The notes below the pieces were generated by a model. The model did not search any database and was not told the origin of the DNA. It saw only the letters and a program-made list of their open reading frames with translations. From contig DASXTQ010000042.1 of NCBI GenBank assembly GCA_036505295.1, positions 6,769-70,768 of the forward strand: 64,000 bases of DNA, read 5' to 3'. Positions 31,504 to 34,710 of this stretch are shown in pieces. This DNA comes from Candidatus Eiseniibacteriota bacterium. Its GTDB lineage: Bacteria; Eisenbacteria; RBG-16-71-46; SZUA-252. Position 1 is the stretch's first letter. Each line of letters begins with the position of its first letter. The translations under genes were made by a program, and so were the position numbers.

Positions 31504-31622
31504 GCTCCGACGATAGCACCACCCAGGGCGGGGCCGAAAAATCTTCTTGACGGCGTGGGCGCTTCTATCGTAGATTGACGATTAACGATTTTGCTGCGGT
31601 TCCTCTCCAGGAGGCGGTTCTT

Positions 31623-31970
31623 ATGGTCGATCGCATTGGTTTTTCGAAACGTCCTGCTTCGCCGCGGGGACGCCGTGTCCCTGCGAAGGGGGACGATGAT
31701 CTCGCGAGCCTCGCGTGGGGGCTCGCGCATCCCGCTCGGGCTGCGATCCTCCGTCTTCTGCTCGAGCGTGGGGAGTGTATCTGCGGAGCGATCGTCGACT
31801 CGATGCCGCTCGCGCAGGCGACGGTCTCGCAGCACCTCAAGGTGCTCAAGGAGACCGGATGGATTGAGGGGGAAATCGACGGGCCGCGGGTTTGCTACTG
31901 CCCGACGGCGGACGCGATGGCGCGGTTCAAGCAGTTACTGCAAAGCCTGGAGTCAGGCGAACGGAGGTAA
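31623..31970 (+). CDS. arsR: ArsR/SmtB-family metalloregulatory transcriptional repressor
   Basis: Winged HTH ([29 protein letters not shown]). Start at MVDRIG with GGAGG RBS. The ORF's TTG at 31575 is an alternative start. Confidence 0.8.
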
Positions 31971-31975
31971 ATGCG

Positions 31976-32749
31976 ATGGAAGCTAGAAGCGATGTTCGAA
32001 CAGCGGTTCGAGGACGATACGGGGCGATCGCGGAGGGTAAGGCGGGATGCTGCGGCTCGAGCGGGTCGGAATGCTGCGGCGGAACGGTCACCAGCGGGCT
32101 TGCCGAGCTGGGATACAGCGCGGCTGACGCGGCCGCGATACCGGAAGGCGCGAACTTGGGCCTGGGATGCGGAAACCCGATCGCGCTGGCGGAGGTAAGG
32201 CACGGCGAGACCGTGCTCGATCTCGGGTCGGGCGCGGGGGTCGACGCCTTCCTGGCGGCACGCGAGGTCGGACCGGAGGGGCACGTCATTGGCGTGGACA
32301 TGACGCCTGCGATGATCGACCGGGCCCGGGAAAACGCGGCCAAGGGAGACTACTCGAACGTCGAGTTCCGTCTCGGCGAAATCGAGCATCTGCCGGTGCC
32401 GGACGCGTCGGTCGATGTCATCGTGTCGAATTGCGTCGTGAACCTCTCCCCCGAGAAAGACCGCGTCTTCCGCGAGGCGTTTCGGGCGTTGAAACCGGGT
32501 GGGCGCATGCTGGTGAGCGACCTCGTTCTGGAGAAACCGCTTCCGGAGGAGACGCGCGAGTCGATCGAGGCCTACGTCGGCTGCATCGCGGGAGCCTCAC
32601 TCAAGGAGGACTATCTGCGTCTCATCCGCGAGGCCGGGTTTCAGGACGTCAAGATCCTGCGCGAGGGACGCTACGGGACTGAGCCGGTCACCTCAGTCCA
32701 GGTGCGCGGGGTGAAGACGCTGGGGCCGGACGCCGCGCCGGCGCGGTGA
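31976..32749 (+). CDS. arsM: Arsenite S-adenosylmethionine methyltransferase
   Basis: GGAGG RBS. SAM motif VLDLGSGAGVD. Conserved ArsM cysteines (GCCG..., CGNP, CV). Confidence 0.8.
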   Translation: MEARSDVRTAVRGRYGAIAEGKAGCCGSSGSECCGGTVTSGLAELGYSAADAAAIPEGANLGLGCGNPIALAEVRHGETVLDLGSGAGVDAFLAAREVGPEGHVIGVDMTPAMIDRARENAAKGDYSNVEFRLGEIEHLPVPDASVDVIVSNCVVNLSPEKDRVFREAFRALKPGGRMLVSDLVLEKPLPEETRESIEAYVGCIAGASLKEDYLRLIREAGFQDVKILREGRYGTEPVTSVQVRGVKTLGPDAAPAR

Positions 32750-32755
32750 GGCCAC

Positions 32756-33340
32756 CTACTCGCGGATGACCGCCTCCCCGGCGGCGTCGTAGCTCAAGAC
32801 GGCATGAATCGGGAGGGTCGAGCCCAACTTGGCCCTCCCGCCCAGGAACGCGATCTCCACGACGAACGCGAATCCGGCCGGCTTGCAGCCCAGCGTTTGG
32901 AGCAGCGCCAGCGAGGCGAGCGCGGTGCCGCCCGTCGCAATCACGTCATCGGCGATCAGGACGCGCGTCCCGGGCGCGAAAAGCCCGTGGTGCGTTTCGA
33001 TCGACGCGTTCCCGTACTCGAGCGTGAACTCCTCGCGCGCGGCCGATCCCGGGAGCTTCCCCGGCTTTCGCGCCAGCATGAGGCCCGCGCGCCACCGCGC
33101 CGCGAGCCCCGCCGCGACGAGAAACCCCCGCGCCTCGATCCCGAGAACGGCTTCGGGTGGAGCCTTGTCGAATGGGCGAGCGAGCGCGTCGAGCGCGCGC
33201 GCCCACGCCGCGCCGTCCGCCCAGAGCGGCGTCAGATCGCGGAAGAGAACGCCGCGCTGCGGGAAATCGGGGACAGCGCGTACCCACGCCGAGAGGGGCG
33301 CGTCGGGTGACGAAGGTTTCCTGAATCGAGACTCGGACGT
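32756..33340 (-). CDS. apt: Adenine phosphoribosyltransferase, lacking a canonical start codon (possible pseudogene or ACG/sequencing-error start)
   Basis: Frame open from anti-sigma stop (33347) with full APRT conservation (VPDFPQRGVLFRDLTP...GIEARGF...RKPGKLPG...VLIADDVIATGGT). Only in-frame ATG is internal (33079). An ACG at 33338-33340 sits where a start is expected. Confidence 0.55.
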   Translation of the reverse strand, partial: TSESRFRKPSSPDAPLSAWVRAVPDFPQRGVLFRDLTPLWADGAAWARALDALARPFDKAPPEAVLGIEARGFLVAAGLAARWRAGLMLARKPGKLPGSAAREEFTLEYGNASIETHHGLFAPGTRVLIADDVIATGGTALASLALLQTLGCKPAGFAFVVEIAFLGGRAKLGSTLPIHAVLSYDAAGEAVIRE

Positions 33341-33346
33341 GGGGGC

Positions 33347-34162
33347 CTATCCTCCCAAGGACCCGATCATGACGATCGGGCCGGTCGGCTCGTTCCGGGT
33401 AGGCGCCCCGCCCTGGGGCTCGAGAGAGATCGCGAACGCGGTCAGACCGGCCGGATCACCGATGTCTTCGATGCGGAGCACGGCGCGTCCGCTCGGATCG
33501 GGGCGAATGAGCCCGAGCGACACCGGCGTATTGCCGCGGAGAGCCCAAAGCTCGTAGTCGCGTCCGCTCGGAGCCTTGAAGTTCTGGAACACAAGGATCG
33601 CGCGGTGCGTTTCGGGATCCACCGTCGCGCGTGCGCGAAGCTCGGCCTCCCCGGCCGGTGTGAGCGAGAAGGAAGCGGTCCGGGCACCGGGCGAGGCCAG
33701 CACCGCGGCCCAACGCCGCTCGGCGTCGAGATCGCGCGTGAGGTTCTGGACCTGGTCGCGGGCGCGGTTCAAATCCTTCCTCAGGCGGGTCGTCGTCGTG
33801 AGAAGGATTCCCGTCGCGAGAAGGAAGCAGGCCGCCAGCGCCCAACCCAACTGGGGCGGCGGCGCCCACCGTTTCTTCGTCGGAAGGATCCGCCCATCCT
33901 TCGAGCGCCCGCCCTCCGCACCCGCATCGGCGCGCACCGCGGCGAGCACCCTCGCTTTGATCGCGGGGCTGGGCAGCGCCGGGGGGGCCGAGGCCGCAAG
34001 GAGCACCGCGCTACCGCCGAAATCGCGGAGCGCGCCCTCGCAGACGGGGCACGCTTCGCCGAGGTGCGCCTCGAGCCGGCTCCGGTCGGCCTCGTCGAGG
34101 CACCCGAGCACGTACGCCGCGCAAAGATCGAGATGCTCGTCGCGATGTTGGCTCACGCCCAC
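33347..34162 (-). CDS. Anti-sigma factor (zinc-finger anti-sigma N-domain + RskA-like C-terminal domain)
   Basis: N-terminal H-x3-C ... C-P-V-C zinc motif. Central TM segment. C-terminal anti-sigma-K/RskA-like domain. Overlaps the ECF sigma gene by 10 bp. Confidence 0.75.
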   Translation of the reverse strand: MGVSQHRDEHLDLCAAYVLGCLDEADRSRLEAHLGEACPVCEGALRDFGGSAVLLAASAPPALPSPAIKARVLAAVRADAGAEGGRSKDGRILPTKKRWAPPPQLGWALAACFLLATGILLTTTTRLRKDLNRARDQVQNLTRDLDAERRWAAVLASPGARTASFSLTPAGEAELRARATVDPETHRAILVFQNFKAPSGRDYELWALRGNTPVSLGLIRPDPSGRAVLRIEDIGDPAGLTAFAISLEPQGGAPTRNEPTGPIVMIGSLGG

Positions 34163-34710
34163 TCCTCGTGCGGTAGAAGCTCACGCAGCCTCGTGAGAGC
34201 CTGCCGCGTCCACGATTTCACGGTGCCGAGCGGCGCGCCGAGCCGCGCGGCGATCTCCATCTGGGAAAGTCCGTCGAAGTAGGCGCTCTCGAGCACGCGG
34301 CGGTGCTGCGGCTCGAGGGAGCCCAGCGCAATCCGGACGCGCTGGCCAATCTCGTTTCGCGCCGGGCGCGAAGAGGGATCCTCCGCCGGTTGAGGAAGAC
34401 TGGTTTCGGCCTGAGCCTCGGCGCGTTTGCGCGAAGCGGCGCTCCGATAGCGGTCGAGCGCCCGCGTGCGCGCCACGGTCAATAGCCAGCCCGCCACGGG
34501 ACCCCGCCGGCCGTCGTATGTCGATGCGGTCCGCCATACCTTGACCCAGGCTTCCTGCAGGGCGTCCTCCGCCTCGGCGCGCGAGCGCAGGATCCGCAGT
34601 ATCACCGGATAGATCAGCGGCGTGTACCGGTCGTAAAGCTCCTCCAGCGCGCGCGAATCGCCGGCGATCAAACGCCTGATGCTTGCGACGTCCTGCTCCT
34701 GCCGAGTCAT
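34153..34710 (-). CDS. ECF-subfamily RNA polymerase sigma-70 factor
   Basis: Region 2 (YDRYTPLIYPVILRIL...DALQEAWVKVW) and region 4 (DGLSQMEIAARLGAPLGTVKSW) motifs. Confidence 0.85.
   Translation of the reverse strand: MTRQEQDVASIRRLIAGDSRALEELYDRYTPLIYPVILRILRSRAEAEDALQEAWVKVWRTASTYDGRRGPVAGWLLTVARTRALDRYRSAASRKRAEAQAETSLPQPAEDPSSRPARNEIGQRVRIALGSLEPQHRRVLESAYFDGLSQMEIAARLGAPLGTVKSWTRQALTRLRELLPHEEWA

What the first reader, a model, noticed from the sequence alone, without database searches (positions are those of the whole stretch)
32756..33349. apt gene with no canonical start codon, in the same frame as and immediately after the anti-sigma factor stop
Fully conserved APRT sequence (VPDFPQRGVLFRDLTP...) begins 8 codons after the anti-sigma TAG stop (33347-33349), in the same reading frame. 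No ATG/GTG/TTG occurs before the internal Met of MLARKPG (33079). An ACG at 33338-33340 sits exactly where a 22-residue N-terminal extension typical of APRT would start. Three explanations are possible: an ATG-to-ACG substitution (sequencing error or genuine start-codon loss giving a pseudogene), rare non-AUG initiation, or stop-codon readthrough creating an anti-sigma-APRT fusion.
Basis: seen in the sequence. Interest (0 to 1): 0.5.

Follow-up and report, generated by a model that had tools for sequence, protein, structure and literature searches.

The report
Conserved ACG start codon on apt
In a group of uncultured soil bacteria (Candidatus Eisenbacteria), the adenine-salvage gene apt has ACG exactly where its relatives have the ATG or GTG start codon, and it has kept that ACG through long evolution, so it most likely starts translation at a codon that standard bacterial gene finders do not accept.

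Summary
An ACG sits at 33340-33338.

This is not a sequencing error. Two other assemblies match the window exactly over 665 nt. At least 12 diverged lineages from independent soil metagenomes and MAGs carry the same ACG.

It is not a pseudogene. Core dN/dS is about 0.1 at dS up to 0.9.

It is not a readthrough fusion. The stop-to-ACG spacer is 4, 5 or 6 nt, so the frame relationship is not conserved.

The ACG lines up codon for codon with the GTG or ATG start of outgroup orthologues, and with CTG in a sister lineage. A GGGAGG Shine-Dalgarno lies 8-10 nt upstream, inside the last anti-sigma codons. ACG never varies, although only 11% of fourfold-degenerate sites in the same sequences are invariant.

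Best reading: a selectively kept near-cognate ACG initiation codon, used in tight translational coupling to the anti-sigma gene. No experimental proof is available. Gene callers truncate this apt to 107, 164 or 175 aa.

The parts
34153..34710 (-). ECF-type sigma factor gene, first gene of the operon. Its TGA stop overlaps a GTG of the anti-sigma gene (GTGA at 34156-34153).
   Evidence: Pfam Sigma70_r2, Sigma70_r4 and Sigma70_ECF; ORF list.
33347..34162 (-). RskA-type anti-sigma factor gene with a single hydrophobic segment at residues about 103-125. It ends ...PIVMIGSLGG-TAG.
   Evidence: PF10099 RskA_C 4e-25; NF052375 anti-sigma 126.9 bits against a cutoff of 100; hydropathy.
33351..33356 (-). 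Shine-Dalgarno-like GGGAGG inside the last anti-sigma codons, 10 nt upstream of the ACG.
   Evidence: Sequence. A GGAGG core is kept in 11 of 14 ACG/CTG lineages, and spacing to the start is 8-10 nt.
33347..33349 (-). TAG stop of the anti-sigma gene.
   Evidence: The stop is TAG in all ACG/CTG lineages except L057, which has TGA.
33341..33346 (-). 6-nt spacer (GCCCCC) between the stop and the ACG. Its sequence and length (4-6 nt) vary among relatives.
33338..33340 (-). ACG, the proposed initiation codon of apt.
   Evidence: It is invariant in WIN, L001, L002/19/20, L017, L018, L021/22, L027/45, L028, L003/37, L054-56, L057 and L062. It aligns codon for codon with GTG (L033/34) and CTG (L058, L063), and at protein level with the ATG-encoded Met of P0005.
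32756..33340 (-). apt coding sequence as proposed: 194 codons plus a TAG stop.
   Evidence: NF002636 183.5 bits; PDB APRT hits down to 5e-39; core dN/dS 0.07-0.16.
33281..33283 (-). GTA Val codon of VRAVPDFP. It is GTG in some relatives, where gene callers start a 175-aa product. Here it is GTA, so no fallback canonical start exists.
   Evidence: It is GTA in WIN, L002, L017, L019 and L020; GTC in L003, L037 and L054; ATC in L057.
33077..33079 (-). Internal ATG (the Met of MLARKPG), the false start that gene callers use to give a 107-aa fragment.
   Evidence: L059 and L060 are called as 107 aa. Such a product would lack the first 87 residues of the 194-aa protein, including VLFRDLTP and GIEARGF.

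Best explanation
apt is an intact, functional adenine phosphoribosyltransferase gene. Its initiation codon is the near-cognate ACG at 33340-33338.

It is the third gene of an ECF sigma / anti-sigma / apt operon and is translationally coupled to the anti-sigma gene. Ribosomes finishing that ORF at TAG are held by the GGGAGG Shine-Dalgarno sequence inside its last codons. They then start again, or new 30S subunits are recruited, 4-6 nt downstream at ACG, presumably with initiator tRNA.

ACG is intrinsically a very weak start, 0.1-1% of AUG in E. coli. The strong Shine-Dalgarno sequence and the very short distance from the stop probably compensate, giving low APRT output that depends on anti-sigma translation.

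Shown here: absence of any canonical start, positional homology of ACG to ATG/GTG starts, nucleotide-level conservation of ACG, purifying selection downstream of it, and a non-conserved frame relationship to the anti-sigma gene. Inferred, not shown: that ACG is decoded by fMet-tRNA, and that initiation depends on upstream termination.
For: 1. No in-frame ATG, GTG or TTG lies between the TAG and codon 88 of the ACG-started ORF (the ATG at 33079). The APRT profile and solved structures need residues from about 16-20 onward.

2. The window allele is reproduced exactly in two other assemblies.

3. ACG lies 4-6 nt after the anti-sigma stop in at least 12 distinct lineages from different metagenomes and MAGs. 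Their pairwise synonymous divergence reaches 0.7-0.9.

4. In 11 of these lineages only 8 of 71 fourfold-degenerate columns (11%) keep the third base, none of 4 conserved Thr columns does, and only 24 of 175 codon columns are fully invariant. ACG is invariant, while the adjacent spacer changes in both sequence and length.

5. Positional homology. L033/34 have TAG + 5 nt + GTG with the same downstream register (VPGPFFERP against TSESRFRKP). P0005 (MTTPLFQKP) has its stop + 4 nt + ATG. L058 and L063 have TAG + 6 nt + CTG at the same codon.

6. The codons between ACG and the core stay in frame, including a 33-nt in-frame deletion in L003/37. They carry synonymous changes in the conserved APLxxW motif, and dN/dS is about 0.2-0.5 for deep pairs.

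7. Core dN/dS is 0.07-0.16.

8. A GGGAGG or GGAGG lies 8-10 nt upstream in most ACG/CTG lineages.

9. New canonical starts have appeared next to a retained ACG: L024 has TAG-ATG-GCC-ACG, and L028 has an ATG 7 codons downstream. This is what compensation for a weak start would look like.

10. Published work. ACG supports measurable initiation in E. coli, with Met and some Thr at the N-terminus (bioRxiv 10.1101/063800). Termination-reinitiation coupling needs overlaps or very short distances (PMC10666635). Re-initiation uses initiator tRNA and IF2, and IF3 counteracts non-canonical starts (PMC2268962).
Against: No experimental N-terminus, ribosome profiling or expression data exist for these uncultured organisms.

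ACG has a middle-position mismatch with the initiator anticodon. In E. coli it belongs to the weakest group of codons, at 0.1-1% of AUG.

ACG invariance is measured over phylogenetically related lineages, and the NJ tree is rough. The number of independent events is therefore uncertain.

The following TCC codon is also conserved, so part of the constraint could be on an RNA or DNA motif (CACGTCC) rather than on the start codon as such.

Several ACG lineages also have an in-frame GTG at the Val of VRAVPDFP that could serve as a second start. The window, L002, L017, L003, L054 and L057 do not.

The rest of the genome was not available, so a second apt copy cannot be excluded beyond the 64-kb window.
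Confidence: 0.68

Rival explanations
1. Start-codon-independent or differently placed re-initiation. Post-termination ribosomes resume translation just after the TAG, or at some other non-canonical triplet. On this view ACG is conserved for another reason, for example as part of a CACGTCC RNA motif that pairs with the Shine-Dalgarno sequence.
For: RRF inactivation in E. coli causes initiation at non-canonical codons downstream of stops (discussed in PMC2268962). RNAalifold proposes weak GGA(G)G:C.UCC pairing between the Shine-Dalgarno sequence and ACGUCC. TCC after ACG is also conserved.
Against: ACG is the only near-cognate triplet kept in all lineages, and it is the exact positional homologue of ATG/GTG/CTG in relatives. 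The spacer codons vary freely, and in the 4- and 5-nt lineages they are out of frame. The proposed pairing has no covariation.
Confidence: 0.12
2. In lineages that have one, the real start is a downstream canonical codon: GTG at the Val of VRAVPDFP, or ATG in L028. The window allele, with GTA, would then be a recently disabled or barely expressed copy.
For: GTG at that Val is present in L001, L018, L021/22, L027, L028 and L062, and gene callers use it to give 175-aa products such as P0003 and P0013.
Against: GTA or GTC replaces it in WIN, L002, L017, L019, L020, L003/37 and L054-56, and ATC in L057. Those genes still show core dN/dS of about 0.1-0.15. The upstream APLxxW motif is conserved at protein level with synonymous changes. 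GTG is also the expected common Val codon in a genome of about 65% GC, so its presence is not informative.
Confidence: 0.07
3. The ACG is converted to AUG on the mRNA by C-to-U editing, or it is read by a dedicated initiator tRNA. On this view the codon is not really non-canonical at the ribosome.
For: ACG-to-AUG start creation by editing is routine in plant organelles, and the hits are dominated by organelle, viral and eukaryotic cases. Strict conservation of ACG fits any mechanism that needs exactly this triplet.
Against: To my knowledge no C-to-U mRNA editing is known in bacteria. CTG occupies the same position in L058 and L063, which editing of a C at position 2 would not explain. No tRNA or deaminase evidence is available, and the window holds no tRNA genes.
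Confidence: 0.03
4. Stop-codon readthrough or recoding produces an anti-sigma-APRT fusion protein.
For: In the window and in L001, L002, L017, L003, L028 and L054, apt is in the same frame as the anti-sigma ORF, separated by TAG plus two codons.
Against: The spacer is 5 nt in L018, L021/22 and L027/45, each of the last two seen in two assemblies. It is 4 nt in L057 and L062, so the frames differ. The anti-sigma factor has one transmembrane segment followed by the RskA_C domain, so a C-terminal fusion would place APRT on the wrong side of the membrane.
Confidence: 0.02
5. Sequencing or assembly error (true ATG), or a decaying pseudogene.
For: A single T-to-C change would explain the window taken alone.
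Against: Identical sequence occurs in L059 and L060. The same ACG occurs in at least 12 lineages from JGI, ENA, NCBI and Logan assemblies. Core dN/dS is about 0.1, and no stops or frameshifts interrupt the lineages analysed (L041 and L045, which have premature stops, were excluded).
Confidence: 0.02

Closest known systems
Near-cognate, non-canonical bacterial start codons (E. coli infC and pcnB AUU, rare CUG/AUA/AUC starts; NCBI table 11 start list)
   Same: A housekeeping gene uses a weak codon one base away from AUG, preceded by a Shine-Dalgarno sequence. The codon is conserved among relatives. Expression is presumably low and sensitive to initiation fidelity (IF3).
   Different: The codon is ACG, with the mismatch at the middle position. 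ACG is not among the seven start codons of table 11. In E. coli it falls in the weakest class, 0.1-1% of AUG. My literature search returned only eukaryotic, viral and organellar ACG starts. No autoregulatory logic like that of infC is evident.
Translational coupling by termination-reinitiation (trpB-trpA, M13 gene V-VII, ATGA/TGATG overlaps)
   Same: The genes are co-directional and the stop and start lie within a few nucleotides. The Shine-Dalgarno sequence sits inside the end of the upstream gene. In the wider phylum, apt starts overlap or abut the upstream stop: ATGA, GTGA, TGATG, TGA-GTG and TAG-ATG.
   Different: Here the restart codon is non-canonical, and it is separated from the stop by 4-6 nt rather than overlapping it. 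Coupling was not tested.
ACG starts made canonical by C-to-U RNA editing in plant organelles
   Same: A genomic ACG sits at the position of an orthologous ATG start in an otherwise intact, conserved gene.
   Different: This is a bacterium, no editing machinery is known, and a sister lineage has CTG at the same codon, which editing would not repair.
Bacterial adenine phosphoribosyltransferase (apt; PDB 4m0k, 2dy0)
   Same: There is a full-length match to the apt equivalog and to solved APRTs, with the PRPP motif VLIADDVIATGGT present.
   Different: Only the start codon and the operon context (downstream of an anti-sigma factor) are unusual.

Membership tests
Adenine phosphoribosyltransferase (apt) | Score above the curated cutoff of an apt equivalog model, over the full length. 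| tested here: met
   NF002636 scores 183.5 bits against a cutoff of 125 and covers profile positions 9-175 of 176. Four other apt models score below their own cutoffs, so this is a diverged subfamily.
Adenine phosphoribosyltransferase (apt) | Type I PRTase PRPP-binding motif and homology to solved APRT structures. | tested here: met
   VLIADDVIATGGT is present. PF00156 hit. 4m0k 5e-39 and 2dy0 3e-33.
Adenine phosphoribosyltransferase (apt) | Enzymatic activity on adenine and PRPP. | not testable with these tools
   No assay is possible. The only indirect support is purifying selection, with dN/dS about 0.1.
Gene with a non-canonical (near-cognate) initiation codon | No canonical start in frame upstream of, or within, the conserved N-terminal part. 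| tested here: met
   for the window. The same holds in L002, L017, L019, L020, L003/37, L054-56 and L057.
Gene with a non-canonical (near-cognate) initiation codon | The candidate codon is the positional homologue of canonical starts in orthologues. | tested here: met
   GTG in L033/34, ATG in P0005 and CTG in L058/63, all in the same register.
Gene with a non-canonical (near-cognate) initiation codon | The candidate codon is conserved beyond the synonymous expectation. | tested here: met
   ACG is invariant in 11 lineages in which 11% of fourfold sites and none of 4 Thr codons are invariant. The lineages are related, so this is supportive rather than a formal probability.
Gene with a non-canonical (near-cognate) initiation codon | A Shine-Dalgarno sequence at functional spacing. 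| tested here: met
   GGGAGG or GGAGG lies 8-10 nt upstream. The 16S 3' end of this organism was not available.
Gene with a non-canonical (near-cognate) initiation codon | An experimentally determined N-terminus or initiation-site footprint. | not testable with these tools
   Uncultured organisms; no proteomic or ribosome-profiling data could be accessed.
Translational coupling by termination-reinitiation | Co-directional genes with an overlap or a very short stop-to-start distance. | tested here: met
   4-6 nt in all ACG/CTG lineages. The criterion comes from PMC10666635.
Translational coupling by termination-reinitiation | Downstream translation depends on upstream translation. | not testable with these tools
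   Needs reporter constructs with premature stops in the anti-sigma gene.
Programmed stop-codon readthrough fusion | The downstream ORF is conserved in the same frame as the upstream ORF. | tested here: not met
   Spacers of 4, 5 and 6 nt occur in different lineages.
Pseudogene | Relaxed selection, frameshifts or stops. | tested here: not met
   Core dN/dS is 0.07-0.16 at dS up to 0.9, and the ORFs are intact in all lineages analysed. L041 and L045 have premature stops and were excluded.
RskA-type anti-sigma factor (upstream gene) | RskA_C domain plus a single transmembrane segment, encoded next to an ECF sigma factor. | tested here: met
   PF10099 4e-25, NF052375 126.9 bits against a cutoff of 100, one hydrophobic segment at residues 103-125, and an ECF sigma gene immediately upstream.

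The most novel reading that the evidence does not exclude
ACG is not a tolerated defect but a required triplet. One possibility is that bacterial C-to-U mRNA editing turns it into AUG. Another is that it is read by a dedicated initiation mechanism. Either way, APRT synthesis would be gated by the ECF sigma/anti-sigma module. A milder and much more likely version is that, within a few nucleotides of an upstream stop and behind a strong Shine-Dalgarno sequence, start-codon identity is relaxed enough for ATG, GTG, CTG and ACG to replace one another over evolutionary time.
Probability: 0.04. Interest if true: 0.9.

Novelty: new variant of a known kind. Interest (0 to 1): 0.55.

Why it matters
If ACG really starts this gene, it is a natural, clade-wide and selectively maintained bacterial ACG initiation codon. 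ACG is outside the accepted start set of genetic code table 11, and I found no native bacterial example in the literature held here.

The locus also offers a natural series at one homologous site: ATG, GTG, CTG and ACG, with 4-6 nt spacers, strong or weak Shine-Dalgarno sequences, and newly gained canonical starts nearby. That series makes testable the idea that tight translational coupling relaxes start-codon stringency.

There is a practical consequence. Gene callers and NCBI-style annotation truncate this apt to 107, 164 or 175 aa. Metabolic reconstructions of these soil MAGs can therefore wrongly score adenine salvage as missing or broken.

Tried and rejected
1. Out-of-frame GTG at 33287-33285 plus a frameshift or a 1-nt assembly error. 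Rejected: this GTG is only the by-product of the GCG-TGG (Ala-Trp) codons, it is absent in L001 (GCC TGG), and the frame from ACG is intact in all lineages.

2. In-frame ATA in the 5-nt spacer lineages (GGAGG-ATA-GGC...). Rejected as a general start: it is TTA in L021/22 and out of frame in the 6-nt lineages.

3. A genome-wide habit of non-canonical starts. A crude GC3-based gene list with its lead regions and a Shine-Dalgarno plus near-cognate scan found no other case in the window. 64 kb is too little to generalise.

4. Conserved RNA structure around the start. RNAalifold gives a hairpin upstream of the Shine-Dalgarno sequence and a weak pairing between the Shine-Dalgarno sequence and the start region. 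Neither has covariation, because all paired columns are invariant, so this is uninformative.

5. An internal promoter or terminator between the anti-sigma gene and apt. The scan found no sigma-70-like promoter, and its two terminator-like sites (both inside the anti-sigma gene, at about 33830-33870) are no more than expected from shuffles.

6. A second apt copy. None in the window; the rest of the genome was not available.

7. DNA of the closest ATG-start relative, P0005, could not be fetched. Only gene coordinates were available, showing a 4-nt gap.
Full report
**What is in the window.** On the minus strand there is a three-gene operon.
- An ECF-type sigma factor at 34710..34153 (Pfam Sigma70_r2, r4 and ECF).
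- An RskA-type anti-sigma factor at 34162..33347 (PF10099 4e-25; NF052375 126.9 bits). It has one hydrophobic segment at residues 103-125.
- An adenine phosphoribosyltransferase gene directly after it.

The anti-sigma ORF ends ...CCG ATC GTC ATG ATC GGG TCC TTG GGA GGA TAG, with TAG at 33349-33347. The same frame continues GCC CCC ACG TCC GAG TCT CGA TTC AGG AAA CCT ... and stays open to TAG at 32758-32756. There is no in-frame ATG, GTG or TTG until ATG 33079.

The product is a real APRT. NCBIfam NF002636 scores 183.5 bits against a cutoff of 125, covering profile positions 9-175 of 176. Solved APRTs match down to 5e-39, with alignments starting at residue about 16-20 of the ACG-started protein. 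A product starting at Met 33079 (107 aa) would lack the VLFRDLTP and GIEARGF regions.

**Whose genome this is, and whether the ACG is real.** The nearest genomes are Candidatus Eisenbacteria MAGs from soil. L002 (VBOX01000058) is 95% identical at protein level. Two other assemblies, JGI 3300036864 (L059) and Logan SRR11743100 (L060), are 100% identical to the window over 665 nt spanning the junction and all of apt. In both, the gene caller produced only the 107-aa fragment.

**Comparative anatomy of the junction.** I collected 16 genome loci, 37 metagenome loci and 10 further loci through exact-protein look-ups, then printed the junction codon by codon. All loci downstream of an RskA-type anti-sigma gene share the C-terminal ...PIVMIGSLGG stop.

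ACG follows the stop in these distinct lineages:

| Spacer between stop and ACG | Lineages |
|---|---|
| 6 nt | WIN, L001, L002/19/20, L017, L028, L003/37, L054-56 |
| 5 nt | L018, L021/22, L027/45 |
| 4 nt | L057, L062 |

The spacer sequence itself varies: GCCCCC, GGCTCC, GGCTCT, GCTCC, GCGTC, CGCAC, CGCTCC, CGCACC, CCTCCC, CGGCCC, GCCC, CCCT. The ACG never varies. Two of the 5-nt lineages were each seen in two separate assemblies.

**Positional homology.**
- L033/34 (73-74% identical) have TAG + 5 nt + GTG followed by P-G-P-F-F-E-R-P. This is the same register as the window's ACG followed by S-E-S-R-F-R-K-P.
- P0005 (80% identical, MTTPLFQKP...) starts 4 nt after its anti-sigma stop, by gene coordinates. 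Its Met aligns to the window's ACG.
- L058 and L063 have TAG + 6 nt + CTG-ACC-TCG-...-TTC-CAT-CGG-CCC, so CTG sits at exactly the same codon.
- In more distant Eisenbacteria (L005-7, L035, L036, L038, L039) apt follows a sigma-70-like gene with ATGA or GTGA overlaps.

The site is therefore the apt start codon in relatives. In this clade it is occupied by ACG, or by CTG in a sister lineage.

**Selection.**
- Among ACG lineages, core dN/dS (175 codons) is 0.07-0.16 with dS up to 0.9. The gene is under strong purifying selection.
- The 18 codons between ACG and VRAV stay in frame in every lineage. This includes a 33-nt in-frame deletion in L003/37.
- Those codons show synonymous changes in the conserved APLxxW motif, and dN/dS is about 0.2-0.5 for the deeper pairs. 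Translation must therefore begin upstream of that motif.
- In WIN, L002, L017, L019, L020, L003/37, L054-56 and L057 there is no canonical start there or even further downstream. The Val of VRAV is GTA, GTC or ATC.
- Across 11 ACG lineages only 8 of 71 fourfold-degenerate columns keep their third base. None of 4 conserved Thr columns does, Thr usage is ACG 52 / ACC 30 / ACT 2, and only 24 of 175 codon columns are fully invariant.

An invariant ACG inside a fast-evolving N-terminal tail, next to a variable spacer, points to constraint on the triplet itself. The lineages are related, so this is supportive rather than a formal probability.

**History.** A rough NJ tree places L054 (ACG) and L058 (CTG) near the base of the anti-sigma-linked clade. 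Canonical-start members are nested among ACG members: L025/26 with TGA-GTG, L029 with TGATG, and L024 with TAG-ATG-GCC-ACG. L024 and L028 have gained an ATG two codons upstream or seven codons downstream while keeping the ACG. This looks like repeated repair of a weak start, although multiple losses cannot be excluded.

Loci with canonical starts that abut or overlap the stop often have a degraded Shine-Dalgarno sequence (GGACGC, GGGCGC, GCGCAC). ACG and CTG loci mostly keep GGGAGG or GGAGG. This is suggestive only.

**Alternatives.**
- *Sequencing error and pseudogene* are excluded by the points above.
- *Readthrough fusion* is excluded because the frame relationship changes with the 4-, 5- and 6-nt spacers. 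The anti-sigma C-terminal domain also lies beyond its single transmembrane segment.
- *The out-of-frame GTG at 33287* is a by-product of the Ala-Trp codons and is absent in L001.
- *A genome-wide habit* is not seen. This is the only Shine-Dalgarno plus near-cognate site in the 64 kb that opens a long coding-like ORF with no canonical start upstream.
- *RNA structure* gives no test, because the paired columns are invariant.
- *C-to-U editing* cannot be excluded without RNA data, but CTG at the same codon in L058/63 speaks against it.

**Mechanism proposed.** ACG is a near-cognate initiation codon used in tight translational coupling.
- Hecht et al. measured ACG within the 0.1-1% of AUG class in E. 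coli. They recovered Met, and some Thr, at the N-terminus of ACG-started GFP (bioRxiv 10.1101/063800).
- Coupling by termination-reinitiation is efficient only with overlaps or very short distances (PMC10666635).
- Re-initiation needs initiator tRNA and IF2. It is aided by a Shine-Dalgarno sequence and opposed by IF3, which also rejects non-canonical codons (PMC2268962).

Here the stop is 4-6 nt from ACG, and a strong Shine-Dalgarno sequence sits 8-10 nt upstream. That is the context in which a weak codon is most likely to work. Low output is plausible for a salvage enzyme.

The sequence facts are shown. fMet-tRNA decoding of ACG and dependence on anti-sigma translation are inferred.

**Comparison with what is known.** Non-AUG/GUG/UUG starts such as infC AUU are known. 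Table 11 lists ATA, ATC, ATT and CTG as starts but not ACG. A six-phrase full-text search returned 168 papers; the 40 I listed were all eukaryotic, viral or organellar, with no native bacterial gene among them. The library is open-access only, so this is not proof of absence.

I file this as a new variant of a known kind: near-cognate initiation combined with translational coupling.

**Verdict.** Confidence that ACG is the functional start is about 0.68. Interest is 0.55: a specialist would find a conserved bacterial ACG start notable and testable, but it rests on comparative inference alone.

Noticed in passing
window 33362-33380 (minus strand): There is a perfect inverted repeat CCCGATC-GTCAT-GATCGGG (7-bp stem, 5-nt loop) just upstream of the Shine-Dalgarno sequence. 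It encodes the conserved GPIVMIG of the anti-sigma C-terminus. It is present in nearly all anti-sigma-linked loci (L058 lacks it) and shows no covariation. It could be a coupling hairpin or simply a consequence of the peptide sequence.
   Followed up: partly
window 34153-34162 (minus strand): The sigma stop and the anti-sigma start overlap: GTG GGC GTG A. The second GTG (34156) forms a GTGA overlap with the sigma TGA, behind GAGGAG. The whole sigma / anti-sigma / apt operon therefore looks translationally coupled. The ORF list takes the first GTG (34162).
   Followed up: no
loci L005-L008, L035, L036, L038, L039, L042, L046: In more distant Eisenbacteria, apt follows a sigma-70-like gene (C-terminus ...TRERVRQIEERAL...) with ATGA or GTGA overlaps, instead of an anti-sigma gene. 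apt is thus persistently coupled to sigma-related genes across the phylum, for no obvious functional reason.
   Followed up: partly
window 31575-32749 (plus strand), convergent with apt: There is an ArsR/HTH_5-like regulator and a SAM methyltransferase with a Cys-rich N-terminus (GCCGSSGSECCGG; Methyltransf_31 6e-43), which resembles an ArsR-ArsM arsenic methylation pair. Its stop lies 6 nt from the apt stop. The same neighbours are conserved in L054, L055 and L059.
   Followed up: no
L041 (WNFL01029323) and L045 (Ga0137417_1309623): The apt reading frames in these two loci have premature stops, at 103 and 108 codons. L045's near-identical relative L027 is intact. These are probably assembly indels rather than real pseudogenes, and both loci were excluded from the selection analysis.
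   Followed up: no
window 32808-33557 (plus strand): The antisense frame of apt is open for 249 codons with GC3 0.84. A simple GC3-based gene picker preferred it over apt. This is a reminder that long shadow ORFs in this GC-rich genome are not evidence of genes.
   Followed up: no
L006 and L007, far upstream of apt (roughly 1.7 kb) in the apt-frame listing: A tRNA-like sequence (GGGGCGTAGCGCAGCCCGGTAGCGCACCTGC...GGTTCAAATCC...) lies upstream of the sigma-70-like gene. It was not scanned with ARAGORN.
   Followed up: no
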